Below, one piece after another: positions 6,420-36,092 of a stretch of DNA of 64,000 bases. A model generated the notes under the pieces. The model was not told the DNA's origin. It saw only the letters and a list, made by a program, of their open reading frames with translations, and did no database searches. Every line of letters begins with the position of its first letter. The first letter of the stretch is position 1. The translations under genes were made by a program, and so were the position numbers. This stretch comes from a virus. Lineage: Duplodnaviria > Heunggongvirae > Uroviricota > Caudoviricetes. The stretch is taken from the IMG/VR virus record IMGVR_UViG_3300031992_000063, positions 22,390 through 86,389 of that record; one strand, given 5' to 3'.

Positions 6420-6422
6420 TAT

Positions 6423-6452: not shown

Positions 6453-6543
6453 ATAATTATAGTAAAGGGCTGCTGCTTCGCGCCGGTCGCTTTACTGAAC
6501 CTATAAGGGGTGTATAGGCCCCTTATTATTTTAATAAGGGGGG

Positions 6544-6702
6544 ATGACTTATAGCGTAGTTAAAATCAACCGTTATTCAAGGAAGTTTGAGAGTAACGGA
6601 TACGACATATACAACGGACTTATCGGCAACAGAAATGTCTACGTCTTTAATGAAAATAAATACTGGTGGCACTGGAGCAGATTAGACCAACGCAGGAATT
6701 AA
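6544..6702 (+). CDS. Small ORF (52 aa) downstream of a strong RBS; frame 1
   Basis: AAGGGGGG followed by ATG 6544. It overlaps the open 5' end of the frame-2 tail-fibre gene. This could be a real leader gene or an alternative-frame artefact. Confidence 0.25.
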   Translation: MTYSVVKINRYSRKFESNGYDIYNGLIGNRNVYVFNENKYWWHWSRLDQRRN

Positions 6703-9004: not shown

Positions 9005-9020
9005 AAGGAGGACTTAATAA

Positions 9021-9551
9021 ATGATTAAAATTAACAATTTAGAACTTCAAGAAATATCTTGTTCCTATACAGATTCTACTTTACGAATTGTTGCGGATAT
9101 TTAGAATATAACTCTCCAAGAGCTTGAATCTTACTTTTCTTTTAATACCGATGCTACCATTGAACAATATATTAATGATACCCTTATCAATAAATGGTAT
9201 TATAAGGAATTTAAATCAATTGGTTATGAAAAAACAGAAACTGGGTGGCATATCAATTTAACTCTTGAAGCCTATGTTATCGCTCAAGACAATATTACCG
9301 ATATATATAATTTACTTCAAGAAAAAGAAGACGCTCTTCTAGAGATTGCTTCTTTAATAGACACATCAGACACTCAAACCAATAAAATTAACGAAGCAAT
9401 TGAAAATGTTAATAAACAGATTGAAGAGTTAAAAAATTCAATATTAAAACGATTTAATGAATTACAACAAACAATTTATAACTTAAGTAATAACCAAACA
9501 CGATTAACTACTCGTGTAACCAATCTTGAGTTAAATCAAGGAGGTCGTTAA
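9021..9551 (+). CDS. Tail-associated hypothetical protein (176 aa), C-terminal coiled coil, 1 in-frame TAG
   Basis: RBS AAGGAGG followed by ATG 9021. Frame 3 runs to TAA at 9549-9551 with one TAG at codon 30. Missing from the ORF track because the TAG splits it. Confidence 0.55.
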
Positions 9552-9552
9552 T

Positions 9553-9660
9553 ATGGTTCAAATTTATGTACGACGTATCCGTGAGAAAAAAATGACATTG
9601 CAAGATGTACCATAGAAATGGCGCGAACAAGTTAAAACATATCTTGAAAATAATTAATTA
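9553..9660 (+). CDS. XkdX-like small phage protein (35 aa), 1 in-frame TAG
   Basis: ATG 9553 lies 1 nt after the previous stop, with RBS AAGGAGG. MVQIYVRRIREKKMTLQDVP(TAG)KWREQVKTYLENN resembles the XkdX family that follows tail-fibre genes in Bacillus phages. Confidence 0.45.
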
Positions 9661-9699
9661 AAATTAATTCTAACCTCACATCTTATATATAGAACTTCT

Positions 9700-9737
9700 A
9701 TGCCTAAAAGTTAAAAAGCTTTTAGGCATAATTTTTA
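9700..9737 (+). terminator. Rho-independent terminator
   Basis: ATGCCTAAAAG-TTAAAA-AGCTTTTAGGCAT followed by AATTTTT. Confidence 0.6.
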
Positions 9738-9752
9738 AGGAGGAAAAGGAGA

Positions 9753-10715
9753 ATGGAGTATACACATAAAAGTTGGGCAAATGGTGAAGTAATCACCGCG
9801 GCAGCACTAAATAATATTGAAGACGGAGTGAAGCGCGCAAACGATGCTGTTGATGGTATGGTAGCCAATGGAGTTTCTTCTAATTCACTAAATATTAATA
9901 ATAAAATTACCGGTACCAATGATGGTATTTTAACAGTAGATAAGAAATTAATAGTTGGAAATAATGATAGTAGCTCTACAACAGTAGTTAGTTTAAAAGG
10001 AATCCTTGAAACTAATAGTGAGATTATATTACCGTCAACTTAGTCTGACAATGCTAATTCTGCTACAAGTAAATCATATGTGGATAGTGAAATTAACAAT
10101 AAAATCGCTAATGCTCTTAATGATTATCAAGTGAAATCAATTAGTGTAGGACAAACTGGTGGAATTTCCACTTCAACTACTGATAAAGTAGTAACTTTAA
10201 CGCTTGCTACTGCTTCGGATAAACAATTGGGTGGAATCAAAGTAGGTAAAAATTTAACAATAGATAACGGTGTATTAAGTGGTGGTTATTCTGCTGCTGA
10301 GCCTTATATGGATGAAAATAATCCTGGGGCAGATGGATTAATGACAGCGAGCGATAAAGCAAAATTAACCAGTATCGCCGCAGGAGCAACAGCAAATATT
10401 GGTACTGTTACTGGCATCAGGATAAATAGCGATAGAGCCTATGCTCCAGAAGCAAGTGGCTAGGTAAATATTCAAGGAATAGTAACCGGAATTAAGGTAA
10501 GCAATAACACTATTCTTTCTCCAAATCCAGAAGCAACCGGTGAAGATATCGGTGTCGTTGATATTAGCAGCCACTTTTCTACTAAAGCTAATATCGCTAG
10601 CCCAACTTTTACCGGCACCGCTACTTTTGAGAAAATTAAAATCGGTAATTACGAACTTGACGAAACAAAACTATCACAATTACTTGCACTGCTTGAAAAT
10701 AATGGAGGCGAATAA
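9753..10715 (+). CDS. Tail fibre-like protein with the 'GLMxAxDKxKL' phage tail repeat (320 aa), 2 in-frame TAG
   Basis: RBS GGAGGAAAAGGAG followed by ATG 9753. The frame is continuous through TAG at 10041 and 10461 to TAA. Motif ...ADGLMTASDKAKLTSIAAGATAN... Confidence 0.65.
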
Positions 10716-10717
10716 TT

Positions 10718-10909
10718 ATGACTATAATGTCTAAACGCGGTTCATCTGACAACGTTCTAACATACGAACACATCTGCGACACCGTAGATGACTTACAAAC
10801 GATTGACCCTAAATACATAACTCTCGGCTCCGTCGCAATTGTTCTTAAAGGCGCGGCCGGACTTGAAGTTTATATGGCTACTTCTGATAAAGAATGGATT
10901 CATCTATAA
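10718..10909 (+). CDS. Hypothetical protein (63 aa)
   Basis: ORF track entry. RBS GGAGG. Confidence 0.5.
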   Translation: MTIMSKRGSSDNVLTYEHICDTVDDLQTIDPKYITLGSVAIVLKGAAGLEVYMATSDKEWIHL

Positions 10910-10922
10910 GGAGGAATAATAT

Positions 10923-12845
10923 ATGGATATTATTGATGTAATGCTTGCGAAAGCATTGTCTCCGCAAGGATAGGTTGAATCTTATGCGCGGCAATCTGAA
11001 ACAGCAGTAGCCAATGCGAATAGCGCCGTTGCCGCCATTGATAGTATTACGCAACAGACCAATACAAACAATACAAAATCATAGGAAACTCTCGCGGCGG
11101 CAGAGCAAGCATTAGAGAATGCTTCTGCCGCAGAAGAGCGTATTCAAGCGGCGCTAGACTCAATTCAAGGTTCTTCTACAGAGCAAATTGATGAAGAAAT
11201 TGATAAAATTGCGTTAAGTCTTGCCGCGACTGCTAATGGCTCTAAATTGACGCTTACTACGCCCTCTGGCGCGAAAAAAGAAGTAGAAGGATGGGCAATG
11301 CCGCAACAGCAGCAGCAAACCTTGTATTCTACCACCGGTTCTCACACCGATGGCGCAATGACGCAGAAGGCAGTTACTGATGCCTTAACTTCTTTAGACA
11401 ATAAAATTAAAACCAGCGGTGGCACAAGTAGTGGTGGCGTCAGCAATCTCGGTACTGATGCCGCAGGGCGTATCGTAGTAGTTGGCGCAGATGGTAATAT
11501 CATTGCTGGTGATATCACCGAAGCCGCTATTGTTCAGGCGCTAATTAAAGCAGGTACATATACCGCAGATGGCACTCTTGGTCTTACTATTGACTATGAA
11601 AATAAATCTTTTGAGCGTACCCAAGATGCTATTGGTTTGCGCGCAGGAGAAAACTTTGATGGTTATGCTATGTATGGCGGCAGAATGCGTTGTAATGTAC
11701 GAGATGATGGTACAATCACTGCCTTCTATGGAGATTTAAATTATAAAGAAGATGGCTCTAATGGGCAGGTTATGATTTATCAACCCAAGTTCTATTACCA
11801 GCGTTCTTTTGTCAAGGAAACGCCATCAGCTCACGGAACTATTATTCGGCGCGAAAATCTTATACTTTCCGCGCAGGAGCGAGTAGGCTTCCAACTTCAT
11901 CCTTTGTTTAAATCTGGCGATGAAGAACTAGATTATGTATTACTTCCTGCTTATGAAGGTAGTGTATATGATGCTAGTGAAAGTGCCTATCTTCTAAATA
12001 ACGAAAGCACTGTGGATATCGCCCAAGACAAATTGAGTTCTATTGCCGGTGCGAAGCCTTTTAATGGCACACATATGTCCTTAACAGTAGATATGGTTAA
12101 AGCACTCGCCGCAAATCGCGGTGCTGGTTGGCAACTAACTAATGCCGAATCCGAGTCCGCTCTACAAATGCTAGAAACAGTTGAGTTCGGTTCTATGAAC
12201 GGACAAGCCGCATTAGAGAAAGGTCTTACAGAAATCAACCGTGCCAATTCAACAGATTGTAGCGCAATTACTGGTTCTACTTCAAGCTTAGGTAATACTA
12301 CTGGCGCGGCGGAATCCACTGTAATTGACCGCGATGGCACTAGAACAACCTCTTCTGTTGCCGGTTCTCGCGCAATTAGCTACCGTGGTATGGAAAATCC
12401 TTGGGGTGAAATGTGGAGACTTATTGGTAATGGAGAAATCCAGGGCAATGGAAATACTCTCGGCGGCGTTCCTTATATCAATGGTAACCCGCTTAATATT
12501 CACCTTCCTCACGCATCTTCTGCTTGGATTTCTGCTATGGGATATCAAAATCTTAAATACGATTGGATGTATCTTCCAATTGAATGTGCTACAAGCGCGA
12601 ATAGCGCAGTTCCAGTAGGCGATGCTCTCTGGACTACTCAAAATCTTAATGCTACTAACCTCTTAGCAGTTGGCGGTTCAATTAATGCGAATGATGCCGC
12701 AGGCCCATTCTATTATAGCGCTGACATCGGTATGACAAGTGAAATTCGTTATTTTAATGGGCGCATTATGTTTGTGCCAACAAAGAACTCCATTTATGAT
12801 GCTAATATCACTAAATGGCGCGCGCACTATAAGGAGGGACAGTAA
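10923..12845 (+). CDS. Receptor-binding tail protein (about 640 aa), 2 in-frame TAG near the N-terminus
   Basis: RBS AAGGAGGA followed by ATG 10923. It is in the same frame as ORF 11247..12845 and joined to it through TAG codons at about 10974 and 11082. Confidence 0.65.
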
Positions 12846-12846
12846 T

Positions 12847-13092
12847 ATGATAGATTATGGAAGACAGTTTGGCTTTGTTGAGCCGCAAGAAGTAGAATTT
12901 ACAGATACTTCTGTATTTGTTGCTTCTAATATTCAGCCTAAAAATAAAAATGTAGAAGACTTTCAAATTAATGGATACGAATATGACCTTGTACAATATA
13001 CAAAGGATGAATATTTAATGAAGCAAGCCAATAGTATTGCCGCCTTACAACAAGAACTCGCCGCGGCAAAGATATTATTGGGGGTGGAGTAA
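12847..13092 (+). CDS. Hypothetical small tail-associated protein (81 aa)
   Basis: ATG 1 nt after the upstream stop, with RBS AAGGAGGG. Confidence 0.5.
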   Translation: MIDYGRQFGFVEPQEVEFTDTSVFVASNIQPKNKNVEDFQINGYEYDLVQYTKDEYLMKQANSIAALQQELAAAKILLGVE

Positions 13093-13095
13093 TCA

Positions 13096-13506
13096 ATGAC
13101 TTTAATTGAACTCGCGCGCAAATTGCGCCCATATATAGAAAAAGCGGCTTTATCTTTATCAGATGAAGATGCGCTAGAAGCCGTTGATTTATTTCCCCGC
13201 TGGGATGTTAATCACGGCGAATATGTAAAAGATGATAAAGTGAGATTTGAGGGCGTATTATATAAATGTCTTCAACAGCATTTTCCATAGGCAGGTTGGG
13301 CGCCAACATTGGCACCAAGCCTATGGACGAAAGTACTTATTCCAGATGAAAATGTTATTCCTGAATGGGAGCAGCCCGATAGCACTAATCCTTATATGAA
13401 AGGCGATAAGGTAATGTTTGATGGGAAAGTATATGAAAGTGCTATTGATAATAATATTTGGTCGCCCACTGCTTATCCAGCCGGCTGGGCAGAGGTAAAT
13501 ATTTGA
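13096..13506 (+). CDS. Tandem CBM5/12-type carbohydrate (chitin)-binding domain protein (136 aa), 1 in-frame TAG
   Basis: ORFs 13096..13290 and 13309..13506 share a frame and are joined by TAG. Two repeats of the ChtBD3 pattern: ...VKDDKVRFEGVLYKCLQQHFP(TAG)AGWAPTLAPSLW... and ...YMKGDKVMFDGKVYESA...AGW. Confidence 0.65.
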
Positions 13507-13531
13507 CTTTTTCCTAAATTTATAATATAAT
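13503..13531 (+). promoter_or_regulatory. Consensus promoter (TTGACT-17-TATAAT)
   Basis: Promoter family member. The upstream gene's TGA stop lies inside AATATTTGACT. Confidence 0.55.
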
Positions 13532-13562
13532 AATTATACAATGAAGGAAAGGAGAAAAGAAT

Positions 13563-13844
13563 ATGAAGCAGAGAATTAATATTACAGTAGATGAAAATGA
13601 TGAAGTTGAGCGTCTATTTCTAACTTATAATTCATATATGAGTATGCTTCAATATCTTGCCAACACGGATATGGGCAGTACCCCCGTATATGATAAGAAA
13701 TGGAAAGAAGCATCAGACCTTTGGGTCCAATTGGATAAGAAAAAGCGCGAAATTGAACTTAAATACAAGCCCGCCGGAGACTGGGATAGTTATGAATTTG
13801 ATTTTGAAAATCAGCAGGTGGTGTTTGTAAAAGATGAGGCTTGA
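13563..13844 (+). CDS. Hypothetical protein (93 aa)
   Basis: ORF track entry. RBS GGAGA. Confidence 0.5.
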   Translation: MKQRINITVDENDEVERLFLTYNSYMSMLQYLANTDMGSTPVYDKKWKEASDLWVQLDKKKREIELKYKPAGDWDSYEFDFENQQVVFVKDEA

Positions 13845-15132
13845 TTTCTCCGATTAGATTATAAAGATGTATATGCGCGAAGACCCCGAAGCGACTTGTA
13901 GAAATATTACTTTTTAGGTAACGGATGATTGTTGCTTGAATTGTAGCTATTGCTATTAGACACACAAGGGTCATCGTATGATGAGTAAAGAAACCGCGAA
14001 AGAAATAGTAGATTTATTGTTTAAATTGTATGACGAAAACAATGAAGATACTGTCATAAATCATCATACATATGGTATTGTTTTGGACTTTATCGGCGGC
14101 GAACCATTTATGAATATTGATATCATATCTTTCGTTACTGAATACTTTATTCAGGAATGCGTTCGCCGCGACCATATTTGGCTTACTAATTTTCGTGTAT
14201 CTATGAGTTCCAATGGATTATTATATTTTGAGCCAAAAGTCTAGGAATACTTGCGTAAGTATAAAGACTTTGTTAGCTTAAATATAACAATTGATGGACC
14301 GAAAGAAATACATGATACTTGCCGCAAAGATTTTAGCGGCGAGGGTAGTTTTGATAGGTCAATAAAGGCATGGGAACATTGGTATCATGAGGTAAAGGTA
14401 AATATGCCAGATACAAAAGTAACGATTGCGCCCGAAAACCTATCCTAGCTTGAGTCAACATTTGATTTCTTTCTAGCCAATGGCTGTACTACTATTCACG
14501 CAAATCCAATCTTTGAGCATCCTTGGACTATTCGTGAGGCAAGTGAATATTATCATATATTAATTCGCCTTGCGGATAAACTATTAAAGGTTGAAGGCGC
14601 GGAAAGTTCCCTATTCTCCGACTTTAAAGGTAAGCCTTTGCCGCCAGAGGATACTAATAACTATTGCGGCGGCACTGCGGCAATGTTGGCTTTTGACCCA
14701 GATGGCAAAGCATATCCTTGCTTGCGCTATATGGCAAGTTCACTTTCACCAGAACGGGCGCCACTTGTAATTGGAGATACGCATGGAATATATAATACAC
14801 CAGAATACAAAGCAATATATGATGATATGAAGGCGGTAACGCGGCAATCGCAATCTTTACAAGAATGTTTAGATTGCCCTGTCGCATCCGGTTGTGCGTG
14901 GTGCTCGGCAGAAAACTACAATGAATTCGGCACCTATAACAAACGCTCTATTAACATATGTTGGATGCATCGCGCCGAAGCACTTGCGAATGTATATTAT
15001 TGGAATAAGTATTATAAATTACATAATATCAAAGATACATTCCCATTATATCTACCTAGAAATATAGCGGAAAAAATAATTACAAATCACGAATATAATG
15101 AGTTATATATATTATCACACTCTAATATTTGA
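13834..15132 (+). CDS. Radical SAM / SPASM-domain protein (anSME/peptide-maturase-like, about 432 aa) with 5 in-frame TAG
   Basis: ATG 13834 overlaps the upstream stop in an ATGA junction. Frame 1 is continuous through TAG at 13855, 13915, 13957, 14245 and 14446 to TGA at 15130-15132. CxxxCxxC = ...ITF(TAG)VTDDCCLNCSYCY(TAG)THKG. GGEP motif LDFIGGEPFMN. SPASM-like CGGTAAM...YPC and CLDCPVASGCAWCSAEN. Confidence 0.7.
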
Positions 15133-15157: not shown

Positions 15158-15227
15158 ATATACAGAAAGTGGGTAAGGAACCAACTTTCTAAAAAATAAT
15201 TTTCATAACATAAGGAGGTTATGAGGT

Positions 15228-15605: not shown

Positions 15606-15694
15606 AGCCCCTTAGTTGAATGGCACAACAGCTGACTCTAAATCAGTAAGTGGGATTGACCCCGCGGGTGAGCGTTCGAGTCGCTCAGGGGCCG
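15606..15694 (+). tRNA. Candidate amber-suppressor tRNA, anticodon CUA (reads UAG); isotype undetermined
   Basis: Cloverleaf: AGCCCCT / TA / D stem GTTG-AATGGCA-CAAC / anticodon stem GCTGA, loop CTCTAAA (U33, CUA, A37), TCAGT / 22-nt variable region with GTGGG-ATTGAC-CCCGC helix / T arm GAGCG-TTCGAGT-CGCTC / AGGGGCC / G73. A1-C72 is unpaired. Confidence 0.6.
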
Positions 15695-15781
15695 CGTGGG
15701 AAGCGGACGGCTAGCTACCGAAACGAGATAAGGATGCCCTATCATCCAGCCAAATTTTATTTCTATAGGGAGGAATATAAA

Positions 15782-19864: not shown

Positions 19865-20028
19865 GGCCCTATAGCTCAGTTGGTAGAGCATGCGGCTGGT
19901 CAGAATAGCCAAGTAGTAAGGCATACCATCCCAAGAGAATTATTCTCGTAAGAAGGTAATCGCAAGTGCAATTCTTGCTTCTGGCGCCATTAACCGCAGT
20001 GTCGTAGGTTCAAGTCCTACTGGGGCCG
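19865..20028 (+). tRNA. Interrupted tRNA: canonical acceptor, D, T and anticodon stems with an about 91-nt structured insertion in the anticodon loop; anticodon undetermined
   Basis: GGCCCTA / TA / GCTC-AGTTGGTA-GAGC / A / TGCGG [98 nt] CCGCA / GTGTC / GTAGG-TTCAAGT-CCTAC / TGGGGCC / G. The insert contains nested helices GAGAA-TTA-TTCTC and GCAAG-TGCAATT-CTTGC. Confidence 0.5.
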
Positions 20029-21690: not shown

Positions 21691-22330
21691 ATTTAAAAAT
21701 AATGACACTTACAGCAACTTTTTGGAACAAGATTTTCTGTATAAAAATTTTATAAAGGTGTCATGATAGTTTAGACGCTTACAGCAACTATTTAATACAA
21801 TTTGTGCCATATTTTTACAAATAATATTGTGCGTCTAGATTTTTAGCCATTGCGAGGATAGTTGCCCGCAACATCCTACGTTTTATCATATGAAATGGCT
21901 CGCGCGATTGCTGACGGCAGTAGAGCGCGCGTTATAAATATCGGAACTTGCCGTTTCCTTGCCATACGGTGGTAGTTCCGTTCAAGGCAGAAAACCTGCG
22001 GTCCAGCTGGACGCGATGATGGCTAGTTTGGGGTTTTACGCCACGCTTTTAGGAAGCGCAACCCGCTAGAACGAGATTCTAGCACGCCTCTCCCTATCCC
22101 TATACGCCTCTTAACAATGCGCACCACATAGGGCATTCTGTTAGAGCCTTACACGCCTCTTAACAATGCGGACCAAGTAAGGACATTTAGTCTCGATTAG
22201 TAAAACTTGTATACCGGTTACCTCTAAGCTAAGTTACGAGTTATAGGCTTTAATAAATATAGGAGCAATGAGCGGCTACTTTGCTTAATATTCGGCCCGC
22301 TGACGAGCGTCTATGACAAATCCTATATTT
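21691..22330 (+). ncRNA. About 640-nt non-coding region with two pairs of direct repeats
   Basis: AC(A/G)CTTACAGCAACT(T/A)TTT at about 21705 and 21770. ACGCCTCTTAACAATGCG(C/G)ACCA at about 22105 and 22152. GC-rich hairpins such as CGCGCG...CGCGCG. Confidence 0.3.
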
Positions 22331-23186: not shown

Positions 23187-23399
23187 TTAAATGACAATAC
23201 ATTACCCTCTACACTGTGTAGAGATGGAGTGTGAGTCGCACCTACGGGGTGTCTGGGTCCTAATGTAGCACCAGATAGTAGGAGTTAATCGCCCTATAAG
23301 GCTCACTAAGTCATTCATTTTATATTATATGGAACTAATTCACTCAGAGTTCCTGCGGTTCAAGAGTGAGGCTTGCGGCGCCTTAGACCGCTATTATAT
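23187..23399 (+). ncRNA. Structured spacer with several hairpins, including an about 75-nt element closed by the GTGAGTC/GGCTCAC stem
   Basis: CTCTACA-CTG-TGTAGAG and GGAACT...AGTTCC hairpins. No cloverleaf. Confidence 0.2.
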
Positions 23400-23508
23400 G
23401 CGGTGGTATCCAAGTAGACAAAGGGGCCAGCCGGTAAGTCTGGTGCCTGCGCCGGTATGCTAGCTAAACCGTAGGCTTCGCAGGTGCAAATCCTGACCCG
23501 CCGCACCA
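23400..23508 (+). ncRNA. tRNA-like gene (106 nt plus encoded CCA) with tRNA acceptor, D and T arms but a non-canonical, enlarged anticodon/variable region
   Basis: GCGGTGG...CCGCCGC-A-CCA acceptor. D arm TCCA-AGTAGACAA-AGGG (tRNA-Gln-like). T-like arm GCAGG-TGCAAAT-CCTG. Internal helices GCCAG/CTGGT and GCCTGCG/CGTAGGC. Confidence 0.35.
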
Positions 23509-23511: not shown

Positions 23512-23584
23512 GCCTCTGTAGCTCAGTTGGAAGAGCACGTCCTTGGTAAGGACGAGGTCCCGAGTTCAAGTCTCGGCGGCGGCT
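23512..23584 (+). tRNA. tRNA-Thr(GGT)
   Basis: GCTC-AGTTGGAA-GAGC, anticodon loop TTGGTAA, CCGAG-TTCAAGT-CTCGG. Confidence 0.6.
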
Positions 23585-28426: not shown

Positions 28427-28657
28427 ATGAGTAATAAAATTTATGATATTTTTAACCCAAATTCTGATTATAATAAATATGTTATTGAAAAGGTTAATAA
28501 AGAATTTATTGATAATAGAGAATGCTTTGTATGTAAACATTGTATAGATATATCTGATGATAGGAATACTTGTCATTTATGTGAATATACGCATGATTTA
28601 TTACCAAAAGAATTAACATGTTTACTTTGGGAATTGGAGGAAGAAAATGAATCTTAA
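28427..28657 (+). CDS. Cys-rich zinc-finger protein (76 aa)
   Basis: CFVCKHC...CHLCEY. Confidence 0.5.
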   Translation: MSNKIYDIFNPNSDYNKYVIEKVNKEFIDNRECFVCKHCIDISDDRNTCHLCEYTHDLLPKELTCLLWELEEENES

Positions 28658-29459
28658 TATTTATACAGAAGAAATGGCAAAATCGGCACTAGATAAGGCA
28701 TTCTTTATTGATAAAATTCCGGGCGCAAAATGCGTAATTGATTTTGGTTGTGCTGATGGCGCGATGATTAGATTTTTAGCGCCACTGTTCCCATCTATTG
28801 AGTTCTTTGGATATGATAGTAATGACGAACTTATTGAAATGGGCGAACAGGCGCTGTCAGAAGAAATTAGCAATGTATCATTTTGGCGAAAGGGAGAACT
28901 ACCTAGGATGATACATTGGATAAAAGACTCGTATTCTATGAATGAAGTTTGTCTTAATTTTTCATCCGTGCTGCATGAAGTATTTTCATTTAATAATGGT
29001 ATTGACGAAATTAAAACTCTGATTAAAGAAATTACACCTAAATATATTACTATTCGTGATATGTATTGGCATGCAGGGCCAGGCGTTAATTATCTAAGAT
29101 GCCAGGAAAAACGCATCAGAGAAGCGGTTCTGCCGCAATACCTTGAAGAATATGAAAATCATTTTGACTACATTCATAGCCCGAAAAATATTACTCACTT
29201 CCTTATGAAATATCAGTGGAAAGATAATGGATGGGAAGATGAATTAAAAGAAAATTATTACTCTTGGGATATCAATGATTTGCTTAAAATTGTTGATAAT
29301 GTTGAGTATGATAAAGAACATGGCGACCAGACTTGCTATGACCTTGTATTTTCTAACTATTACCAGCTTCCATATCTTACAGAAAAATGGCTTAACGAAT
29401 ATGGAATTTACAATGTAAACGCGCATACGCACGCGCAGTTTATTCTTAGGAGGATGTAA
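28647..29459 (+). CDS. Class I SAM-dependent methyltransferase (270 aa)
   Basis: Motif I VIDFGCADGAMI. Confidence 0.55.
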   Translation: MNLNIYTEEMAKSALDKAFFIDKIPGAKCVIDFGCADGAMIRFLAPLFPSIEFFGYDSNDELIEMGEQALSEEISNVSFWRKGELPRMIHWIKDSYSMNEVCLNFSSVLHEVFSFNNGIDEIKTLIKEITPKYITIRDMYWHAGPGVNYLRCQEKRIREAVLPQYLEEYENHFDYIHSPKNITHFLMKYQWKDNGWEDELKENYYSWDINDLLKIVDNVEYDKEHGDQTCYDLVFSNYYQLPYLTEKWLNEYGIYNVNAHTHAQFILRRM

Positions 29460-29460: not shown

Positions 29461-29991
29461 ATGGCAACTTTATATATTCTATGCGGTCCCAGCGGATGCG
29501 GAAAAACTACTTGGGCGTGGAAATTTATGGGCGATGACATAGATGTCCGTTATGTTTCCCGCGATGAAATTCGTTTTAGTATGCTTAAAGAAGATGAAGA
29601 TTATTTTGCTCACGAGAAGGAAGTGTTCCGTAAGTTCGTAGGAACAATCGCGCAGACGCTTATTGATGACTTTGATGTAATTGCCGATGCTACTCATCTT
29701 ACAGAGGCTTCACGCAAAAAGCTTATTCGCGCAATTGATGAATATATCACGGACTATTCCATTACCTATGTAGTATTTTATACTCCAATTCAAAAGTGCT
29801 ATGAGAATGACGCTACTAGAACTGGAATAAGATATGTAGGAGAGCAGGTAATTCAAGGAATGTTCCGTTCCTTCAAGGCGCCGACTCTTAAAGAAGATTC
29901 TCGCGCAATTAAGATTATTGAAGTTGGAGAAGGAAAAGAAGATTTTTCCTATTTGATTGAACCTTATAGAAAGGAGTATGAAGATGACTAA
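29461..29991 (+). CDS. P-loop kinase (polynucleotide kinase-like, 176 aa)
   Basis: Walker A LYILCGPSGCGKTT. Adjacent to the phosphoesterase, mirroring the T4 Pnk domain pair. Confidence 0.55.
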   Translation: MATLYILCGPSGCGKTTWAWKFMGDDIDVRYVSRDEIRFSMLKEDEDYFAHEKEVFRKFVGTIAQTLIDDFDVIADATHLTEASRKKLIRAIDEYITDYSITYVVFYTPIQKCYENDATRTGIRYVGEQVIQGMFRSFKAPTLKEDSRAIKIIEVGEGKEDFSYLIEPYRKEYEDD

Positions 29992-30553
29992 TATTTGGCT
30001 TACATCGGATTTACACCTAATGCACTCTAAGTCCTTCCTTTGGGAACCTCGCGGCTTTTCTTCTACGGAAGAAATGTGCGAAGCTATCGTAGAAAGATGG
30101 AATTCGGTTGTTGATAAAGGAGATTTGGTATATAACCTTGGTGATATTGCGCTTTCAGATACAGATGCGGCAATTCCTTATCTTCAGCGGCTTAATGGTT
30201 ATCAGGTATGGCTTAGGGGCAACCACGATACTGATAATCGTGTAAATAAAGTGCTTGACGCTTGCCCCAACATTCATCTTCTTGGCACGCCTGACACTTC
30301 CTATGCTACTGTAATTAAATCGGGTAAGTGGCATTTTTATCTTTCTCACTATCCTACTTATACTTGTAATAATGAGCCTTGGCGCAAGGTAGCAAATCTT
30401 TGCGGCCATAGTCATACGCAGGATAAATGGGCAGATTGGGATAAAATGTGCTACCATGTAGAAATGGACGCGCATAATTGTTATCCAGTAAATCTGGAAG
30501 AAATTAAAAATGACATTTACGAGAAGCGTATTCAAGAGCAGACAAATATTTGA
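29957..30553 (+). CDS. Calcineurin-like metallophosphoesterase (198 aa)
   Basis: DLHLMH, GDIA, GNHD and GHSH motifs. Confidence 0.65.
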   Translation: MNLIERSMKMTNIWLTSDLHLMHSKSFLWEPRGFSSTEEMCEAIVERWNSVVDKGDLVYNLGDIALSDTDAAIPYLQRLNGYQVWLRGNHDTDNRVNKVLDACPNIHLLGTPDTSYATVIKSGKWHFYLSHYPTYTCNNEPWRKVANLCGHSHTQDKWADWDKMCYHVEMDAHNCYPVNLEEIKNDIYEKRIQEQTNI

Positions 30554-30638: not shown

Positions 30639-32132
30639 ATGAGTGAATTTCTTAATGCGATGAAGAGCGAATTTAACTACGGCTATACTGAGAACGGCGG
30701 TATCAAGCATACTTCAACTTTGAATAGCGTGCTTGATATGTTTGCTATGGGTGGCTCTATGCGTAATCGTCCGGAAGAGGATATTATTCGTATGTTTAAG
30801 AAGGCATACGAAGAAGATGCTACTCTTGCTCTAAAGTGCCTCTTCTATCTGCGCGATTGCCGCGGCGGCCAGGGACAGCGTCGTTTCTTCCGCATCTGCT
30901 TCAAGTGGCTTGCTGACCATCACTGCGCTGAGGTGGTCCATCTAATTCCTTTTGTAGCAACCTACGGGCGCTATGATGACCTTTATACTCTGTTTGGTAC
31001 TGCTTGTCAGACCGATATGCTTGAATACTTTGAAAAGGTAATTAAGCAGAATGAGGACCATCTTGTATATAAGTGGCTTCCTTCTATCAATACTTCCTCT
31101 TACGAAACCCAGAAGCGCGGTCGTATCATCGCTACTTGGCTTGGTATGACTGAACGCCAGTATCGTAAGATGCTGTCTGAAGGCCGTAAGGCTTGTAAGC
31201 TTGTTGAAACTCTCATGAGCCAGCAGCGCTGGAATGAGATTGAATTTAATAAGCTACCCTCTCGCGCAGGTATTCTGTATAAGAAGGCGTTCATGCGCCG
31301 TGAAGAAACCAGAGAACGCTATGCTGCGTTTATGGATAGCAAGGAAACCAAGGTTAATGCTGGCGTGCTTAACCCCGTAGATATCGCACACCAGATTTTC
31401 AACAGCTACAATCCCTCTAAGACCGAACGAAAGGCTTGGGATAAGTATTGGGAATGTCTTCCCGACTACTACAACGGTCGCGAAGAGCCTGGCATTGCTG
31501 TTGTAGATGTTAGCGGCAGTATGTTTGGAACTCCTATAGAAGCGGCAGTCTCTCTTGGCGCTTATATCGCAGAACGCGGATATGGTCCTTTCAAGAACCA
31601 TTTCATTACTTTCAGCGGCAATCCCGAACTTATTGAGTTTAGTGGAATTGATTTGTATGATAAGTTTGTTCGCGCGCAGAGAGCAGACTGGGGCGGTAAT
31701 ACAAATATTGAGGCGGTTTTTGACCTGCTTCTAAATACCGCAATTAAGTCTCACATGTCAGCAGATAAGATGCCCAAGACTCTGTATATCTTCTCTGACA
31801 TGGAGTTTGACCACTGTATGACTTATGGCCCTGTTGTTTATGACCGTTGGGTTAGCGGTAATGCTATCATCGATGAAAAGCGGCTTCTTACTGTCATTGA
31901 AGCACAGGCAGAAAAGTGGACACGAAATGGCTATGAACTTCCTCGTGTAATCTTCTGGAACCTTAATGCTCGTCATGACAACATCCCCGCACTTGGTGGT
32001 AGATTCTCATATGTAAGTGGCTTCTCACCCGTTATGATTTCTACTATCCTTGGCGGCAAGGATGGATGGGACCTATGCCTTGAAAAGCTTAATAGTGATA
32101 GATACAGCGTAATTGCTAGTGTCTTAGTATAA
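30639..32132 (+). CDS. DUF2828-like protein with vWA/MIDAS domain (497 aa)
   Basis: MIDAS motif VVDVSGSM. Large helical N-terminal domain. Confidence 0.55.
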   Translation: MSEFLNAMKSEFNYGYTENGGIKHTSTLNSVLDMFAMGGSMRNRPEEDIIRMFKKAYEEDATLALKCLFYLRDCRGGQGQRRFFRICFKWLADHHCAEVVHLIPFVATYGRYDDLYTLFGTACQTDMLEYFEKVIKQNEDHLVYKWLPSINTSSYETQKRGRIIATWLGMTERQYRKMLSEGRKACKLVETLMSQQRWNEIEFNKLPSRAGILYKKAFMRREETRERYAAFMDSKETKVNAGVLNPVDIAHQIFNSYNPSKTERKAWDKYWECLPDYYNGREEPGIAVVDVSGSMFGTPIEAAVSLGAYIAERGYGPFKNHFITFSGNPELIEFSGIDLYDKFVRAQRADWGGNTNIEAVFDLLLNTAIKSHMSADKMPKTLYIFSDMEFDHCMTYGPVVYDRWVSGNAIIDEKRLLTVIEAQAEKWTRNGYELPRVIFWNLNARHDNIPALGGRFSYVSGFSPVMISTILGGKDGWDLCLEKLNSDRYSVIASVLV

Positions 32133-32548: not shown

Positions 32549-33175
32549 ATGGATAATAAACTAACATTTCATAAAATATTAAAGCATTGGAAAACAATTC
32601 GTATTCATAGAAAATGGGTAAGACATTATTGTCATATTGCCGGTATTACTTGGCGCGGAATTACTCATGACCTATCTAAATATTCGCCAACAGAATTTTT
32701 TGAATCCGCGCGCTATTGGACAGGAACACATTCGCCTATTGAAGAAGTGAAGCGAGAGAAAGGAGTATCTCGCGCCTGGCTTCATCATCGCGGCAGAAAC
32801 ACACATCATTGGGCGTATTGGGCAGATAATTTTAGTGAAGGATTTGTCATCCACCCTATGCCAATGGATGACTTTGTAGAAATGGTGTGTGATTTTCTTG
32901 GAGCCGGACGGGCATATTCAGGAAAGTGCTTTTCTTATAGCAACGAGCGCAGTTGGTGGCTCAAAGAGCGCGATGGCGGCAATGCCGCTATGAACCCAAT
33001 TAATAAGAAAATGTTAGATATAATTTTCTCTGACCTAGAATACGCCGAAAATCATCTAATATCTGGTTGCCCTACTAGTCTTATCACGATGGGGCCTGAA
33101 GATTTAATCAAAACCGGATATTTCCAAGAGATTTGGCGCACATGTATGAAAGAGTATGAAAATAGTCAAGTATAA
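32549..33175 (+). CDS. Hypothetical protein (208 aa), His-rich (possible HD-type hydrolase)
   Basis: ITHDLSKY...WLHHRGRNTHHW. Confidence 0.4.
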   Translation: MDNKLTFHKILKHWKTIRIHRKWVRHYCHIAGITWRGITHDLSKYSPTEFFESARYWTGTHSPIEEVKREKGVSRAWLHHRGRNTHHWAYWADNFSEGFVIHPMPMDDFVEMVCDFLGAGRAYSGKCFSYSNERSWWLKERDGGNAAMNPINKKMLDIIFSDLEYAENHLISGCPTSLITMGPEDLIKTGYFQEIWRTCMKEYENSQV

Positions 33176-34715: not shown

Positions 34716-36092
34716 ATGAGCGTACATTGTGGTTATATTATTCAGGTAAAGGACCTTCGTCCGCATCCCAATGCTGACCGGCTTCAACTTCTTCATATAT
34801 TTGAGACCGATACTTGCGTTGGACTGGATGTAAAGGTTGGAGATATTGGCATGTATGTGCCTGCCGATATCAAGCTCGGAGAGCGTTTTTGTCAGGTAAA
34901 TGGACTTCTGCGGCAGAAAGATGAAAATGGAAACCCTATCGGAAATGGTTATCTTGACCCGCAGAAGCGTAATGTAAAGGCAATCAATCTGCGCGGACAG
35001 CGGTCGGATGGTATCTATCTACCTATCACTTCTCTAATGGATTTTTGTAAGATTTCCGACCTAAAGGTTGGCGACCAAATTACTGTTCTTAATGGTGAAA
35101 CCATTTGTGAGAAGTACATTCCGCGTGTTAATCCTGCTCGCGCCGGCTCTATGCCGCATCTTAAGGGAGTAAAGAAGAATATTTGTCCTCTGTTCGCAGA
35201 ACATGTAGAGACCGAGCAGCTTGCTTATAATCTTGATAAGTTTCATACTGGCGATATCGTACAGCTAACCCTCAAGATGCATGGTACCTCTCAGCGCACT
35301 GGTAATCTGCCAGTAATTCATGAACGCAAGCAGAACTTTATTCAGAAACTATTTCATCGTCCTGTAAAGACCTACACCGAATATGAAAACATTACCGGTA
35401 CTCGTCGTGTAGTTCTCGCGGGCGAACGCAAGGGTGGATTTTATGAAAGCGATGATTTTCGCTATGCTATGGCTGCTAAGTTTGACGGTAAACTTCCTCG
35501 CGGCATTACTGTCTACTATGAAGTGGTGGGTTTCCAGGGACCTAACGGCGCTTCAATTATGGGCCAAGTCGCTAATAGCAAGATTAAAGACAAGGCATTC
35601 GCACAGCAATACGGAGAAATGACTACCTTCTCTTATGGATGCGTACAAGACCATAAGTATGAAATGGAAGAACCTCTTGAGACTGGCGTATATCATCCTT
35701 GTTGCGAACTTTATGTTTATCGTATCACTATGACCAATGAAGATGGATTTGTAATGGAATTCTCTCCTGACCAGATTAAGCTTTGTTGCGAACAGTGGGG
35801 CGTAAATGTTGTTCCTGAATTTGAGCGCTTTATTATTCCTGACGGTGTAAATCCGGGAGAATATGTAGTGCGTAAGGTTGAAGAGTACTATGATGGCCCT
35901 GACCCTATCGGAAAGACTCATGTGCGTGAAGGCGTAGTTGCTCGTATTTGTAATCGGTCTAACTTTGCGGTGTATAAGCATAAGAACTTCTCCTTCAAGG
36001 TACTGGAAGGCATTGCGAAGGATGAAGCAGCCGCACCTGATATGGAAGAAGCGCAGGAAATTGTTGAGGAAGATAATAATGAATCAATGTGA
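34716..36092 (+). CDS. RNA ligase (Rnl2-like nucleotidyltransferase) with N-terminal tRNA-binding OB domain (458 aa)
   Basis: N-terminus GYIIQVKDLRPHPNADRLQLLHI...VGDIGMYVPADIKLG resembles the tRNA_bind/EMAP fold. Motif I KMHGTS = KxHG. Confidence 0.55.
   Translation: MSVHCGYIIQVKDLRPHPNADRLQLLHIFETDTCVGLDVKVGDIGMYVPADIKLGERFCQVNGLLRQKDENGNPIGNGYLDPQKRNVKAINLRGQRSDGIYLPITSLMDFCKISDLKVGDQITVLNGETICEKYIPRVNPARAGSMPHLKGVKKNICPLFAEHVETEQLAYNLDKFHTGDIVQLTLKMHGTSQRTGNLPVIHERKQNFIQKLFHRPVKTYTEYENITGTRRVVLAGERKGGFYESDDFRYAMAAKFDGKLPRGITVYYEVVGFQGPNGASIMGQVANSKIKDKAFAQQYGEMTTFSYGCVQDHKYEMEEPLETGVYHPCCELYVYRITMTNEDGFVMEFSPDQIKLCCEQWGVNVVPEFERFIIPDGVNPGEYVVRKVEEYYDGPDPIGKTHVREGVVARICNRSNFAVYKHKNFSFKVLEGIAKDEAAAPDMEEAQEIVEEDNNESM

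What the first reader, a model, noticed from the sequence alone, without database searches (positions are those of the whole stretch)
23400..23508. 109-nt tRNA-like gene ending in encoded CCA but without a canonical anticodon arm
A perfect 7-bp acceptor pairing (GCGGUGG / CCGCCGC-A-CCA), a Gln-like D arm and a T-arm-like hairpin (GCAGG-UGCAAAU-CCUG, with G at the Psi55 position) enclose about 50 nt. That region forms two helices (GCCAG/CUGGU and GCCUGCG/CGUAGGC) rather than a 5-7-5 anticodon stem-loop. It could be an expanded-anticodon or suppressor-type tRNA, a tRNA-derived regulatory RNA comparable to Y-RNA-like modules, or a decayed tRNA.
Basis: seen in the sequence. Interest (0 to 1): 0.55.

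Follow-up and report, generated by a model that had tools for sequence, protein, structure and literature searches.

The report
Conserved tRNA-shaped RNA, non-standard anticodon loop
This is a real, conserved gene for a 109-nt tRNA-shaped RNA in the tRNA array of a stop-codon-recoded phage; it has every tRNA part except a working anticodon loop and carries an oversized extra arm, so it most likely acts as a tRNA mimic, not a decoder.

Summary
Window 23400-23508 (+) is a discrete RNA gene. Conservation starts at G1 and stops at the encoded CCA. I found 15 distinct relatives in viral and metagenome contigs. A cloverleaf with a long extra arm pairs in 98% of cells, and 16 of its 29 pairs show compensatory changes. 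Rfam (E<=10), ARAGORN and 50,697 phage records give no match.

The first sits at the anticodon-arm position: four pairs plus a 31/39 mismatch in all 15 sequences. Its loop is C32-G33-G34-U35-R36-A37-R38, with no U33. The second is a giant class-II variable arm whose loop, AUGCUAGCUA, is conserved in 14 of the 15 sequences. One bulged C separates the T stem from the acceptor stem.

A normal tRNA-Tyr(GUA) lies directly beside it in 9 of the 14 array contexts I read. This points to a tRNA-Tyr-type paralogue that is matured like a tRNA but no longer decodes. Its partner is unknown. Candidates are a tRNA-Tyr-directed host nuclease or the phage's Ro60-like RNA-repair module, 7 kb downstream. A decayed tRNA is excluded. 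A stop-codon suppressor role is unsupported. A decoding role is not excluded.

It is a new variant of a known kind, the tRNA mimic.

The parts
23400..23508 (+). Whole tRNA-shaped RNA gene (109 nt), from G1 to the encoded CCA
   Evidence: Conservation in relatives starts and stops exactly here. My covariance model R1 scores it 127 bits. Rfam and ARAGORN give no hit.
23400..23406 (+). Acceptor stem, 5' strand (GCGGUGG). It pairs with 23498-23504.
   Evidence: 7 bp, 100% paired in 15 sequences. Five of the 7 pairs have compensatory changes.
23409..23425 (+). D arm: 3-bp stem UCC/GGG with the 11-nt loop AAGUAGACAAA. It has a single G where tRNAs have G18G19.
   Evidence: The stem pairs in 100% of cells (U10.G25 changes to U-A). 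The loop is almost invariant.
23426..23444 (+). Arm at the anticodon position: G26.U44, CCAG/CUGG (27-30/40-43), C31.U39 mismatch, and loop C32 G33 G34 U35 A36 A37 G38
   Evidence: Pairs 29-41 and 30-40 covary (A-U/G-C and G-C/A-U). Positions 31/39 never pair in 15 of 15 sequences. There is no U33. Position 36 is A or G.
23445..23476 (+). Enlarged variable arm: stem GCCUGCG/CGUAGGC and an 18-nt apical region. The apical region holds CC, an inner GGU/ACC pairing, and the loop motif AUGCUAGCUA.
   Evidence: All six stem pairs are compensatory in the 15-sequence alignment. CCGGUAUGCUAGCUA is conserved in subtypes A-C. AUGCUAGC is kept in the short relative L155.
23477..23479 (+). UUC linker between the variable arm and the T stem. 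C48 can form the Levitt pair with G15.
   Evidence: Invariant in subtypes A-C. The match to the E. coli tRNA-Tyr linker is from my own recollection of that sequence.
23480..23496 (+). T arm: GCAGG / UGCAAAU / CCUGA. Position 55 is G, and 49/65 is G.A here (G.U in other subtypes).
   Evidence: Pair 50-64 is compensatory (C-G, U-A, U.G). The same T arm occurs in ordinary phage tRNAs with CAU or GCA anticodons, and the same T loop in tRNA-Tyr(GUA) of L021.
23497..23497 (+). Bulged C between the T stem and the acceptor stem. It faces U8 and never pairs.
   Evidence: Present in all 15 family members. Also present in scaffold relatives L012, L036 and L143. Absent from canonical tRNAs with the same T arm.
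23498..23508 (+). Acceptor stem 3' strand (CCGCCGC), discriminator A73, and encoded CCA
   Evidence: A73 in subtypes A-C, G73 in L155 and L156. CCA is encoded in 13 of 15 sequences and reads CUA in L001 and L132.
23512..23584 (+). Context: tRNA-Thr(GGU) starts 3 nt after the CCA. RNase P cleavage at its 5' end would free the candidate's 3' trailer.
   Evidence: ARAGORN and Rfam.
30639..32132 (+). Context only; a functional link is not shown. Ro60-like protein (DUF2828/DUF7788) inside an RNA-repair cluster: kinase 29461-29991, phosphatase 29957-30553, RNA ligase 34716-36092.
   Evidence: Pfam and PHROG hits. The AF2 model's best PDB matches are Ro60 chains.

Best explanation
The region encodes a stable, tRNA-shaped non-coding RNA. 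It is a diverged paralogue of a class-II, tRNA-Tyr-type phage tRNA.

**Shown**
- It is a discrete, conserved, structured gene inside a same-strand tRNA array.
- It keeps an acceptor stem, N73-CCA, a D arm, a T arm and the nucleotides that build the tRNA elbow.

**Inferred**
- RNase P and the normal tRNA 3'-end pathway release it from the array transcript. It then folds into an L shape.
- It no longer reads codons. The base at position 33 is G or C and never U, the 31-39 pair is always broken, and position 36 differs between subtypes while everything around it is fixed.
- It therefore acts as a tRNA mimic. Its working surfaces are the two conserved loops: CGGURAG(U) on the anticodon-position arm, and AUGCUAGCUA on a grossly enlarged variable arm.

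**Most speculative step: the partner**
- My first choice is a factor that normally engages tRNA-Tyr. An example is a host tRNA-Tyr nuclease of the Septu/PtuAB kind, which cuts the tRNA-Tyr variable loop. The RNA would then be a decoy or sponge.
- My second choice is the phage's own Ro60-like RNA-repair proteins, giving a Y-RNA-like role.

**Rough probabilities**

| Claim | Probability |
|---|---|
| Real structured RNA gene | 0.97 |
| Matured like a tRNA | 0.8 |
| Non-decoding | 0.65 |
| Nuclease or other tRNA-Tyr-factor decoy | 0.2-0.25 |
| Ro60-like partner | 0.15 |
For: **Structure and conservation**
- 15 distinct sequences in four subtypes. 98% of cells pair and 16 of 29 pairs are compensatory. 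None of 500 shuffles reaches this, and slid controls pair in 38-50%.
- Boundaries are sharp at G1 and at the CCA.
- It lies between tRNAs on the same strand in every context seen.

**tRNA body**
- U8, A14, G15/C48, U54/A58 and G19-equivalent/C56 are all present. The 18/55 pair is changed from G/U to A/G (by inspection).
- The same A/G elbow occurs in ordinary phage tRNAs, including tRNA-Tyr(GUA) with a normal CUGUAAA loop.

**Tyr-type ancestry**
- Long variable arm, A73, G1-C72, and G34-U35-A36 in subtypes A and C.
- A canonical tRNA-Tyr(GUA) is immediately adjacent in 9 of the 14 array contexts read (L002, L021, L051, L059, L057/L127, L119, L120, L125, L132). It lies elsewhere in the array in L122 and L123.
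- A scaffold relative, L143:250-376, has the same D arm, bulged C and A73, and is an amber suppressor with loop CUCUAAA. That is the classic GUA-to-CUA derivative of tRNA-Tyr.

**Loss of decoding**
- No U33 in 15 of 15 sequences and a 31/39 mismatch in 15 of 15.
- The triplet at 34-36 is GUA, GUG or AUA on an otherwise fixed body with A73 or G73 and no G-1. Arrays carrying the GUG form already have a normal tRNA-His (L051).
- The Rfam tRNA model gives no hit even at E<=10.

**Pressure from tRNA nucleases**
- The window encodes a polynucleotide-kinase-like protein, a phosphatase, an RNA ligase and a Ro60-like protein just after the array.
[quoted passage not shown] It also shows that phage tRNA-Tyr with a different variable loop acts as supplement or decoy (PMC13096335, PMC11555353).
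Against: - There is no transcript, end-mapping, charging or binding data.
- Non-decoding is inferred only from departures from the canonical loop. Tolerance of G33 in this system is untested.
- The window and its closest relative (L001/L128) show no canonical tRNA-Tyr in the sequence available. The RNA could therefore be needed for Tyr decoding there.
- The bulged C is shared with L143 and L012, which have normal anticodon loops. The bulge does not argue against translation.
- A decoy would be expected to resemble its target. This variable arm is very unlike a normal tRNA-Tyr arm, and a conserved loop suggests a dedicated partner more than nuclease evasion.
- No Septu or PtuAB system is known for the unidentified host.
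- The Ro60-like link is weak. Among 80 viral loci with a Ro60-like gene and up to 10 kb of flank, only L128, L155 and L156 carry a family member. Only about 10 of 86 such loci have any expanded tRNA-like RNA of this type.
Confidence: 0.45

Rival explanations
1. It is a working tRNA with an unconventional anticodon loop. One version is a nuclease-resistant tRNA-Tyr isoacceptor reading UAY through G34-U35-A36. The other is an expanded-loop decoder, because nine unpaired nucleotides (YCGGURAGU) could read more than three bases.
For: - Complete tRNA body with A73-CCA and a class-II arm, and GUA at 34-36 in subtypes A and C.
- No other tRNA-Tyr was found in the window or in L001/L128.
- Relatives on the same scaffold have proper anticodon loops (L143 CUA, L012 CAU), so the scaffold itself is probably translation-competent.
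- Phage tRNAs are reported to carry anticodon-loop changes that evade host nucleases (eLife 85183, as cited in PMC11555353).
Against: - U33 is absent in 15 of 15 sequences and the 31-39 pair is always broken.
- Subtype B reads GUG and L155 reads AUA on the same body with no His identity marks. A decoder would then change amino-acid meaning between close relatives.
- In 11 of 14 arrays a canonical tRNA-Tyr coexists, and it is usually adjacent.
- Rfam tRNA and ARAGORN both reject it.
Confidence: 0.2
2. It is the RNA partner of the phage Ro60-like protein, a functional analogue of bacterial Y RNAs (YrlA). In those systems a tRNA-like module accompanies Ro60 in RNA-repair or RNA-decay complexes.
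For: - The 497-aa DUF2828/DUF7788 protein at 30639-32132 models as a Ro60-like fold. Its best PDB matches are Thermus phage phiLo Ro60 (9l5y, E = 6.5e-6) and human Ro60 (9nf8).
- That gene lies on the same strand, 4.7-9.2 kb downstream of the RNA in the window, L128, L132, L155 and L156.
- No recognisable YrlA or Y RNA lies near the gene.
- Ro60 orthologues in bacteria and phages usually have tRNA-like Y RNAs (PMC4201824, PMC7824862).
Against: - It lacks the GNCGAAN0-1G Ro-binding motif, and its tRNA-like domain is not permuted.
- It is more than 4 kb from the gene.
- 77 of 80 viral Ro60-like loci have no family member within 10 kb.
- The co-occurrence that exists can be explained by shared ancestry of one phage clade.
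Confidence: 0.15
3. It is a selfish or mobile tRNA-like element. On this view it is the free-standing form of the tRNA-like units found inserted in anticodon loops of tRNAs in the same phages, and it is kept for its own propagation and not for a phage function.
For: - The window's tRNA-Asn (19865-20028) carries a 91-nt insertion. It is exactly a tRNA-like unit from G1 to CCA and has the same AAGUAG D loop and a UGCAAUU T loop. An intron-less allele exists in L128.
- L002 has another such insertion, in tRNA-Lys.
- Model R1 hits the window insertion at 25 bits.
- The candidate's neighbours differ between lineages.
Against: - The candidate family is free-standing in all 15 contexts.
- Its sequence beyond the elbow motifs is unrelated to the two insertions.
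- tRNA arrays are shuffled anyway, and homing endonuclease genes lie in them.
Confidence: 0.1
4. It is a decaying tRNA pseudogene or a chance tRNA-like fold.
For: The single-sequence fold energy is not better than shuffles. Standard tRNA finders reject it.
Against: - 15 distinct homologues with 16 compensatory pairs and conserved loops, across subtypes whose stems differ at many positions.
- Conservation boundaries are sharp.
Confidence: 0.02

Closest known systems
Bacterial class-II tRNA-Tyr, and phage tRNA-Tyr used against Septu / retron-Eco7 PtuAB
   Same: - Long variable arm, A73, G1-C72, and G34-U35-A36 in two subtypes.
- UUC linker before the T stem.
- Usually encoded next to a canonical tRNA-Tyr.
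- Phage tRNA-Tyr variants with altered variable loops are known counter-defence tools (PMC13096335, PMC11555353).
   Different: - No U33, and a broken 31-39 pair.
- The variable arm is about 32 nt with a conserved loop, against about 13 nt normally.
- A bulged C after the T stem, and G55 in the T loop.
- Position 36 is not fixed.
YrlA / bacterial Y RNAs (Ro60 partners with a tRNA-like domain)
   Same: - A non-decoding tRNA mimic with D-like and T-like arms.
- At least one member (M. smegmatis YrlA) is cut by RNase P and receives CCA (PMC4201824).
- A Ro60-like gene and RNA-repair genes lie nearby.
   Different: - YrlA is circularly permuted relative to tRNA, with its ends in the Ro-binding stem.
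- YrlA carries a GNCGAAN0-1G motif and lies within 4 kb of rsr.
- None of these three features holds here.
Allo-tRNAs and 'irregular tRNAs' (Mukai et al., PMC5389517); B. cereus tRNA-Other
   Same: - Non-canonical cloverleaves with long variable arms, found in metagenomes and phages.
- Some are chargeable but are not used in translation, and are proposed to be regulatory.
   Different: - Allo-tRNAs have 8/4 or 9/3 acceptor/T branches, a long D stem with a tetraloop, and normal 7-nt anticodon loops.
- This RNA is 7/5 with a bulge, has a 3-bp D stem with an 11-nt loop, and has an abnormal anticodon loop.
tRNA-like introns of Lak megaphage tRNAs (Devoto et al. 2019, PMC6784885)
   Same: - tRNA-shaped units in the tRNA arrays of TAG-recoded gut phages.
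- The window holds such an intron, with the same elbow signature as the candidate.
   Different: - Those units are inserted in anticodon loops of host tRNAs.
- The candidate family is always free-standing and has its own conserved loops.
T4 species 1 and species 2 RNAs (rnaC, rnaD); from my own recollection, not checked here
   Same: Small stable RNAs of unknown function, encoded in a phage tRNA cluster and processed with the tRNAs.
   Different: No sequence relationship was tested. Those RNAs are not described as complete cloverleaves with CCA, as far as I recall.

Membership tests
Canonical tRNA (Rfam RF00005) | 7-bp acceptor stem, discriminator base, CCA end | tested here: met
   The 7 bp pair in 100% of 15 sequences. 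N73 is A or G. CCA is encoded in 13 of 15.
Canonical tRNA (Rfam RF00005) | D and T arms carrying the elbow and core tertiary nucleotides (U8-A14, R15-Y48, G18-U55, G19-C56, U54-A58) | tested here: inconclusive
   All are present by inspection, except that 18/55 is A/G instead of G/U. Decoding tRNAs in related phages share this variant. The 3-D fold was not tested.
Canonical tRNA (Rfam RF00005) | 5-bp anticodon stem and 7-nt loop with U33 and a purine at 37 | tested here: not met
   Positions 31/39 are mismatched in 15 of 15 sequences. Position 33 is G (14) or C (1). A37 or G37 is present.
Canonical tRNA (Rfam RF00005) | Score at or above the family threshold; detection by ARAGORN | tested here: not met
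   No RF00005 hit even at E<=10 on 321 nt. ARAGORN finds nothing by default, with introns allowed, or with both introns and a lowered threshold.
Bacterial tRNA-Tyr (class II) | Long variable arm, A73, G34-U35-A36 | tested here: inconclusive
   The arm and A73 are present in subtypes A-C. The triplet is GUA in A and C, GUG in B, and AUA in L155. L155 and L156 have G73.
Bacterial tRNA-Tyr (class II) | Aminoacylation by TyrRS and use in translation | not testable with these tools
   Needs biochemistry.
YrlA / Y RNA | Encoded within about 4 kb of a Ro60 orthologue, on the same strand | tested here: inconclusive
   Same strand. Distances are 7.1 kb (window), 4.7 kb (L128), 5.2 kb (L132), 6.0 kb (L155) and 9.2 kb (L156). 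The Ro60-like fold is supported. 77 of 80 viral Ro60-like loci lack the RNA.
YrlA / Y RNA | GNCGAAN0-1G Ro-binding motif near the 5' end | tested here: not met
   The motif is absent from all 15 sequences by inspection.
YrlA / Y RNA | Permuted tRNA-like domain, with RNA ends in the Ro-binding stem and the acceptor-like stem closed by a loop | tested here: not met
   The ends form the acceptor stem with a free ACCA. No Rfam Y-RNA-type hit.
tmRNA | tRNA-Ala-like domain (G3.U70) plus a tag reading frame and pseudoknots | tested here: not met
   Position 3-70 is G-C or A-U. No reading frame is conserved across subtypes (by inspection). ARAGORN and Rfam report no tmRNA here.
tRNA-Sec / allo-tRNA | 8/5, 9/4, 8/4 or 9/3 acceptor/T branch; 6-bp D stem with a tetraloop; UCA anticodon for Sec | tested here: not met
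   The would-be 8th pair is U8.C in all members. The D stem is 3 bp with an 11-nt loop. There is no UCA.
tRNA-like intron (Lak-phage type) | Inserted inside the anticodon loop of a host tRNA | tested here: not met
   The RNA lies between genes in all 15 contexts. It shares only the elbow motifs with the window's intron.

The most novel reading that the evidence does not exclude
The RNA may be a tRNA-shaped molecule that displays codons instead of an anticodon.

- Nucleotides 35-37 of the anticodon-position loop read UAA (subtypes A, C and L156), UGA (subtype B) or UAG (L155). These are the three stop triplets, and UGG never occurs.
- The variable-arm loop carries UAG within GCUAGC in 14 of the 15 sequences.
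- The phage's late genes are TAG-recoded.

Such an RNA could take part in the recoding switch. It might pair with the CUA anticodon of the suppressor tRNA, or titrate a release factor or another stop-codon reader.

The evidence is only three distinct states (chance about 1 in 4) plus the genomic context.
Probability: 0.05. Interest if true: 0.9.

Novelty: new variant of a known kind. Interest (0 to 1): 0.6.

Why it matters
Phage tRNA arrays are usually read as codon-supply or anti-nuclease kits made of ordinary tRNAs. This finding adds a conserved array member that has the full tRNA body but a deliberately non-standard anticodon loop and a sequence-conserved extra arm.

- Standard tools (Rfam, ARAGORN) do not detect it.
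- It is absent from the 50,697 deposited phage records searched.
- It belongs to a wider, unannotated set of expanded tRNA-like RNAs in stop-codon-recoded gut or rumen phages. That set includes tRNA-like introns and a suppressor tRNA with a large insertion.

If it is a decoy or cofactor, it would be a new RNA-based counter-defence or RNA-repair component. If it decodes, it would break the U33 rule.

Tried and rejected
- **Rfam at E<=10** on the region, on the upstream spacer and on the Ro60-like neighbourhood: only neighbouring tRNAs were found.
- **ARAGORN** by default, with introns allowed, and with both introns and an 80% threshold: nothing for the window copy. For L021 and L123 it gave only forced, mutually inconsistent calls.
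- **BLASTN of the 109 nt** against 50,697 phage records: no match. A search with the 1.2-kb surrounding stretch hit only the ordinary tRNAs.
- **Pattern GGTATCCAAGNAGACAAAGG**: also hit collagen-like repeat genes (L055, L056), which are false positives.
- **Two-loop pattern** in viral contigs: all 30 new loci were coding-sequence false positives.
- **GTDB genomes**: no hit for the variable-loop-plus-T-arm pattern, so there is no prophage or host clue.
- **Antisense targets** of the two conserved loops within the window: not above chance.
- **tmRNA-like reading frame** starting at the AUG of the variable loop: it ends after 5 codons in the window but is open and unrelated in other subtypes. Rejected by inspection.
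- **tRNA-Sec or allo-tRNA 8/5 or 9/4 geometry**: rejected because U8 faces C in every member.
- **CCGG/CCGG kissing** between the two loops: compatible, with only C-to-U changes, but there is no compensatory evidence and it competes with the inner GGU/ACC helix. Left open.
- **GNRA-like reading** of G34-U35-R36-A37: fits 14 sequences but not L155. Left open.
- **Ro60-like co-occurrence**: tested on 86 loci and found weak.
- **Enrichment of UAGCUA hairpin loops** in the array: counts are not above the composition expectation, and only conservation of individual hairpins supports them.
Full report
**1. The observation**

- The acceptor stem GCGGUGG/CCGCCGC has 7 bp, one of them a U.G wobble.
- A73 and an encoded CCA follow.
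- The D arm is UCC-AAGUAGACAAA-GGG.
- The T arm is GCAGG-UGCAAAU-CCUGA, with G at position 55.
- Two inner helices are present: GCCAG/CUGGU and GCCUGCG/CGUAGGC.

The element lies in a same-strand array of 19 ARAGORN tRNAs, plus one found only by Rfam, between 15.6 and 26.4 kb. tRNA-Thr(GGU) starts 3 nt downstream.

Standard tools do not see it. ARAGORN is silent even with relaxed settings. Rfam gives nothing at E<=10. The single-sequence fold is no better than shuffles, z = -0.43. On its own the sequence could be chance, so the test had to be comparative.

**2. Relatives and structure**

Exact-pattern scans of IMG/VR and JGI/ENA metagenome contigs recovered homologues. Look-ups around a linked protein gene recovered more.

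| Subtype | Loci |
|---|---|
| A | window, L119, L001/L128, L002/L124, L121, L132/L133 |
| B | L021, L051, L120, L059/L118, L125; partial copy L057/L127 |
| C | L122, L123/L126 |
| D (95-96 nt) | L155, L156 |

- GTDB genomes gave no hit, and 50,697 deposited phage records gave no match.
- Conservation begins at G1 and ends at the CCA, while the flanks are unrelated.
- On 12 distinct sequences the proposed structure pairs in 98.0% of cells, with 11 compensatory pairs. None of 500 shuffles reaches this, and slid controls pair in 37-51%.
- RNAalifold finds the same fold independently.
- With 15 sequences aligned to my covariance model R1, 16 of 29 pairs are compensatory. This alignment is fitted to the model, so it leans towards the structure.
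- R1 separates the family (over 120 bits; 57-63 bits for subtype D) from ordinary tRNAs (under 45 bits).

**3. Anatomy in tRNA numbering**

Alignment with scaffold relatives that have normal anticodon loops fixes the register. These are L012 (CUCAUAA) and L143 (CUCUAAA).

- *Anticodon-position arm.* The first inner helix sits here. It has a 26-44 pair (G.U or A-U), pairs 27-30/40-43 (two of them covary), and a 31/39 mismatch in all 15 sequences. The loop is C32 G33 G34 U35 R36 A37 R38. L155 reads G C A U A G G instead.
- *Variable arm.* The second helix is a class-II variable arm. It has a 6-7-bp stem in which every pair is compensatory, an internal CC, a GGU/ACY pairing, and the loop AUGCUAGCUA(nn). 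UUC and the T stem follow.
- *Acceptor/T junction.* One bulged C lies between the T stem and the acceptor stem and faces U8. It is present in every member.
- *Tertiary contacts.* The usual nucleotides are present: U8, A14, G15/C48, U54/A58 and G/C56. The 18/55 pair is A/G. The same variant elbow occurs in many ordinary phage tRNAs, including tRNA-Tyr(GUA) with loop CUGUAAA next to the candidate in L021 and L002. ARAGORN missed those two.

**4. What it is related to**

A canonical tRNA-Tyr(GUA) is directly adjacent in 9 of the 14 contexts read: L002, L021, L051, L059, L057/L127, L119, L120, L125 and L132. It lies elsewhere in the array in L122 and L123.
- L132 reads Pro-Tyr-candidate-Thr-Leu. 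Its relative L128 reads Pro-candidate-Thr-Leu, so there the tRNA-Tyr was lost and the candidate kept.
- A73, G1-C72, the class-II arm, the UUC linker and G34-U35-A36 fit a tRNA-Tyr-type origin. Resemblance to E. coli tRNA-Tyr in the D arm and linker is from my recollection of that sequence.
- L143:250-376 shares the D arm, the bulged C and A73. It is an amber suppressor (CUCUAAA) with a ~40-nt insertion.
- By R1 score alone, tRNA-Gln and tRNA-Ser are about as close as tRNA-Tyr. The Tyr origin is therefore an inference from context and identity positions, not from overall similarity.

**5. Does it decode?**

Against decoding:
- U33 is never present.
- The 31-39 pair is always broken.
- The triplet at 34-36 changes (GUA, GUG, AUA) on a body that keeps A73 or G73 and has no G-1.
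- Arrays with the GUG form have their own tRNA-His.
- A normal tRNA-Tyr usually coexists.

For decoding:
- The body is complete.
- The scaffold supports normal anticodon loops in relatives.
- The window and L128 show no other tRNA-Tyr.

I put non-decoding at about 0.65.

**6. Context in the window**

- Treating TAG as a sense codon turns 1-15.1 kb into ORFs of 1224, 821 and 818 aa, so the late genes are amber-recoded. tRNA(CUA) lies at 15606-15695.
- An RNA-repair cluster follows the array:

| Coordinates | Product |
|---|---|
| 28647-29459 | methyltransferase |
| 29461-29991 | PNK/KTI12-like kinase |
| 29957-30553 | metallophosphatase |
| 30639-32132 | DUF2828/DUF7788 protein |
| 32549-33175 | DUF5662 protein |
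| 34716-36092 | RNA ligase |
| 37544-38389 | second phosphoesterase |

- The DUF2828 protein has no PDB sequence match. Its AF2 model (pLDDT 72.8) matches Ro60 of Thermus phage phiLo (E = 6.5e-6) and human Ro60.
- The cluster is syntenic in many 160-190-kb contigs.
- The candidate family accompanies the Ro60-like gene in the window, L128, L132/L133, L155 and L156. It is absent from the other 77 of the 80 viral Ro60-like loci. The link may be no more than shared ancestry.

**7. Mechanism**

Shown: a conserved, structured, tRNA-shaped gene in a tRNA array.

Inferred from established tRNA biology:
- RNase P and the 3'-end pathway release it.
- The neighbouring tRNA's RNase P site lies 3 nt after its CCA.
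- It folds as an L.
- Its two conserved loops are the functional surface.

Partner, speculative:
- (a) A factor that engages tRNA-Tyr. Septu and retron-Eco7 PtuAB cut the tRNA-Tyr variable loop, and phage tRNA-Tyr variants act as supplement or decoy (PMC13096335, PMC11555353). The variable arm is exactly what is remodelled here.
- (b) The Ro60-like RNA-repair module, by analogy with YrlA (PMC4201824, PMC7824862).

Neither is tested.

**8. Comparison with known families**

- It is not a canonical tRNA: the anticodon-loop rule and the family thresholds fail.
- It is not YrlA: no GNCGAA motif, not permuted, no Rfam hit.
- It is not tmRNA, tRNA-Sec or an allo-tRNA (PMC5389517).
- It is not a tRNA-like intron of the Lak-phage type (PMC6784885), although the window contains one.

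It works most like the loose class of tRNA mimics or pseudo-tRNAs. I call it a new variant of that known kind.

**9. Verdict**

| Item | Assessment |
|---|---|
| Observation | confirmed |
| Function | unresolved; a non-decoding tRNA-Tyr-type mimic is the best-supported reading (0.45 overall) |
| Interest | 0.6 |

Noticed in passing
window 19865-20028 (insertion 19899-19989): tRNA-Asn(GUU) is interrupted between G34 and U35 by a 91-nt insertion. The insertion is itself a complete tRNA-like unit: a 7-bp acceptor stem GUCAGAA/UUCUGGC, G73, CCA, an AAGUAG D loop and a UGCAAUU T loop. The intron-less orthologue L128:3115-3187 has loop CUGUUAA, which fixes the boundaries exactly at G1 and at the A of the CCA. 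ARAGORN's intron mode miscalls it as Thr(GGU). [quoted passage not shown] The exact G1-to-CCA ends suggest removal by RNase P and a 3'-end enzyme, followed by sealing by the phage RNA ligase. That mechanism is untested.
   Followed up: partly
L002:2147-2294: A second tRNA with a tRNA-like insertion. It is tRNA-Lys(UUU), whose loop is CUUU + UAA once the unit GGGGUAG...UACUCC-A-CCA is removed. The inserted unit has a different sequence from the one in the window.
   Followed up: partly
window 1-15132 and 15606-15695: Late or structural genes are amber-recoded. With TAG read as sense, the ORFs grow to 1224, 821, 818, 641 and 433 aa. A 90-nt class-II tRNA with anticodon CUA and G73 follows. ARAGORN labels it 'Pyl', but it is probably Ser-type.
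   Followed up: partly
L002:4557-4689, L126:11536-11646, L137:5084-5197, L140:4364-4470, L141:4977-5084: A second family of expanded tRNA-like RNAs (about 104-133 nt). They have a tRNA-Leu-like D arm (GGCGGAAUAGGUAGACGC), a T arm UAAGG-UGCAAAU-CCUUA (UGUAAAU in L126), a bulged U or C before the acceptor 3' strand, several inner hairpins, and no encoded CCA. It is absent from the window. In a scan of 86 Ro60-like loci, 9 of the 10 tRNA-like RNAs of 95 nt or more carried the bulged nucleotide.
   Followed up: partly
L143:250-376; L036:166-296; L063:11867-11983 / L082:4942-5058: Class-II tRNAs on the candidate's scaffold that carry 29-50-nt insertions on the 5' side of the anticodon loop. L143 has a perfect amber-suppressor arm, CCGGA-CUCUAAA-UCCGG. 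L036 and L063 end their loops in CGUAAAA, again with G at position 33.
   Followed up: partly
window 15712, 18926, 18953, 23461; L128:2943, 2970; L123:2956; L126:1709; L122:5340: Hairpins whose loops contain UAGCUA recur in the non-coding parts of these arrays. Some have compensatory stems: CGG/CCG in the window against GUG/CAC in L001, just 3' of the suppressor tRNA. The motif also forms the variable-arm loop of a 93-nt tRNA-His(GUG) that has G-1 and C73 (L123:2905-2997). The overall count of the hexamer is not above expectation. This may be a shared protein-binding site or a loop-loop kissing site.
   Followed up: partly
window about 23215-23330: The spacer upstream of the candidate is conserved in L121: GAGUGUGAGUCGC...GGUGUCUGGGU...CACCAGAUAGUAGGAGUU.AUCGCCCUAUAAGGCUCACUAAGUCAUUCAUUU. 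It has no Rfam match at E<=1. It may be another structured RNA.
   Followed up: no
window 30639-32132: The DUF2828/DUF7788 protein (PHROG 850, 'RNA-binding protein') is predicted to have a Ro60-like fold. More than 7,900 database relatives were found. Many of those checked lie in a conserved order: kinase, phosphatase, Ro60-like, DUF5662, RNA ligase.
   Followed up: yes
window 15162-15224 and 22098-22134; L001:1465-1602; L082:68-666: Rfam hits to orphan RNA families occur in and around these arrays: cow-rumen-4 (63.8 bits) and abiF (37.9 bits, just at threshold) in the window, and cow-rumen-3 and ROOL in related loci.
   Followed up: no
L021:288-375, L002:1978-2064, L051 downstream of 2371: ARAGORN misses bona fide tRNA-Tyr(GUA) genes (loop CUGUAAA) that carry the variant elbow: a UAGUAG or AAGUAG D loop with a UGCAAAU, UGCAAUU or UGCGAUU T loop. 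tRNA counts for these phages are therefore underestimates.
   Followed up: partly
family alignment, nt 35-37 (window 23435-23437): The three nucleotides after G34 read UAA, UGA or UAG in different subtypes. These are the three stop triplets, and UGG never occurs. Only three independent states are seen, so this is not significant, but it is notable in an amber-recoded phage.
   Followed up: no
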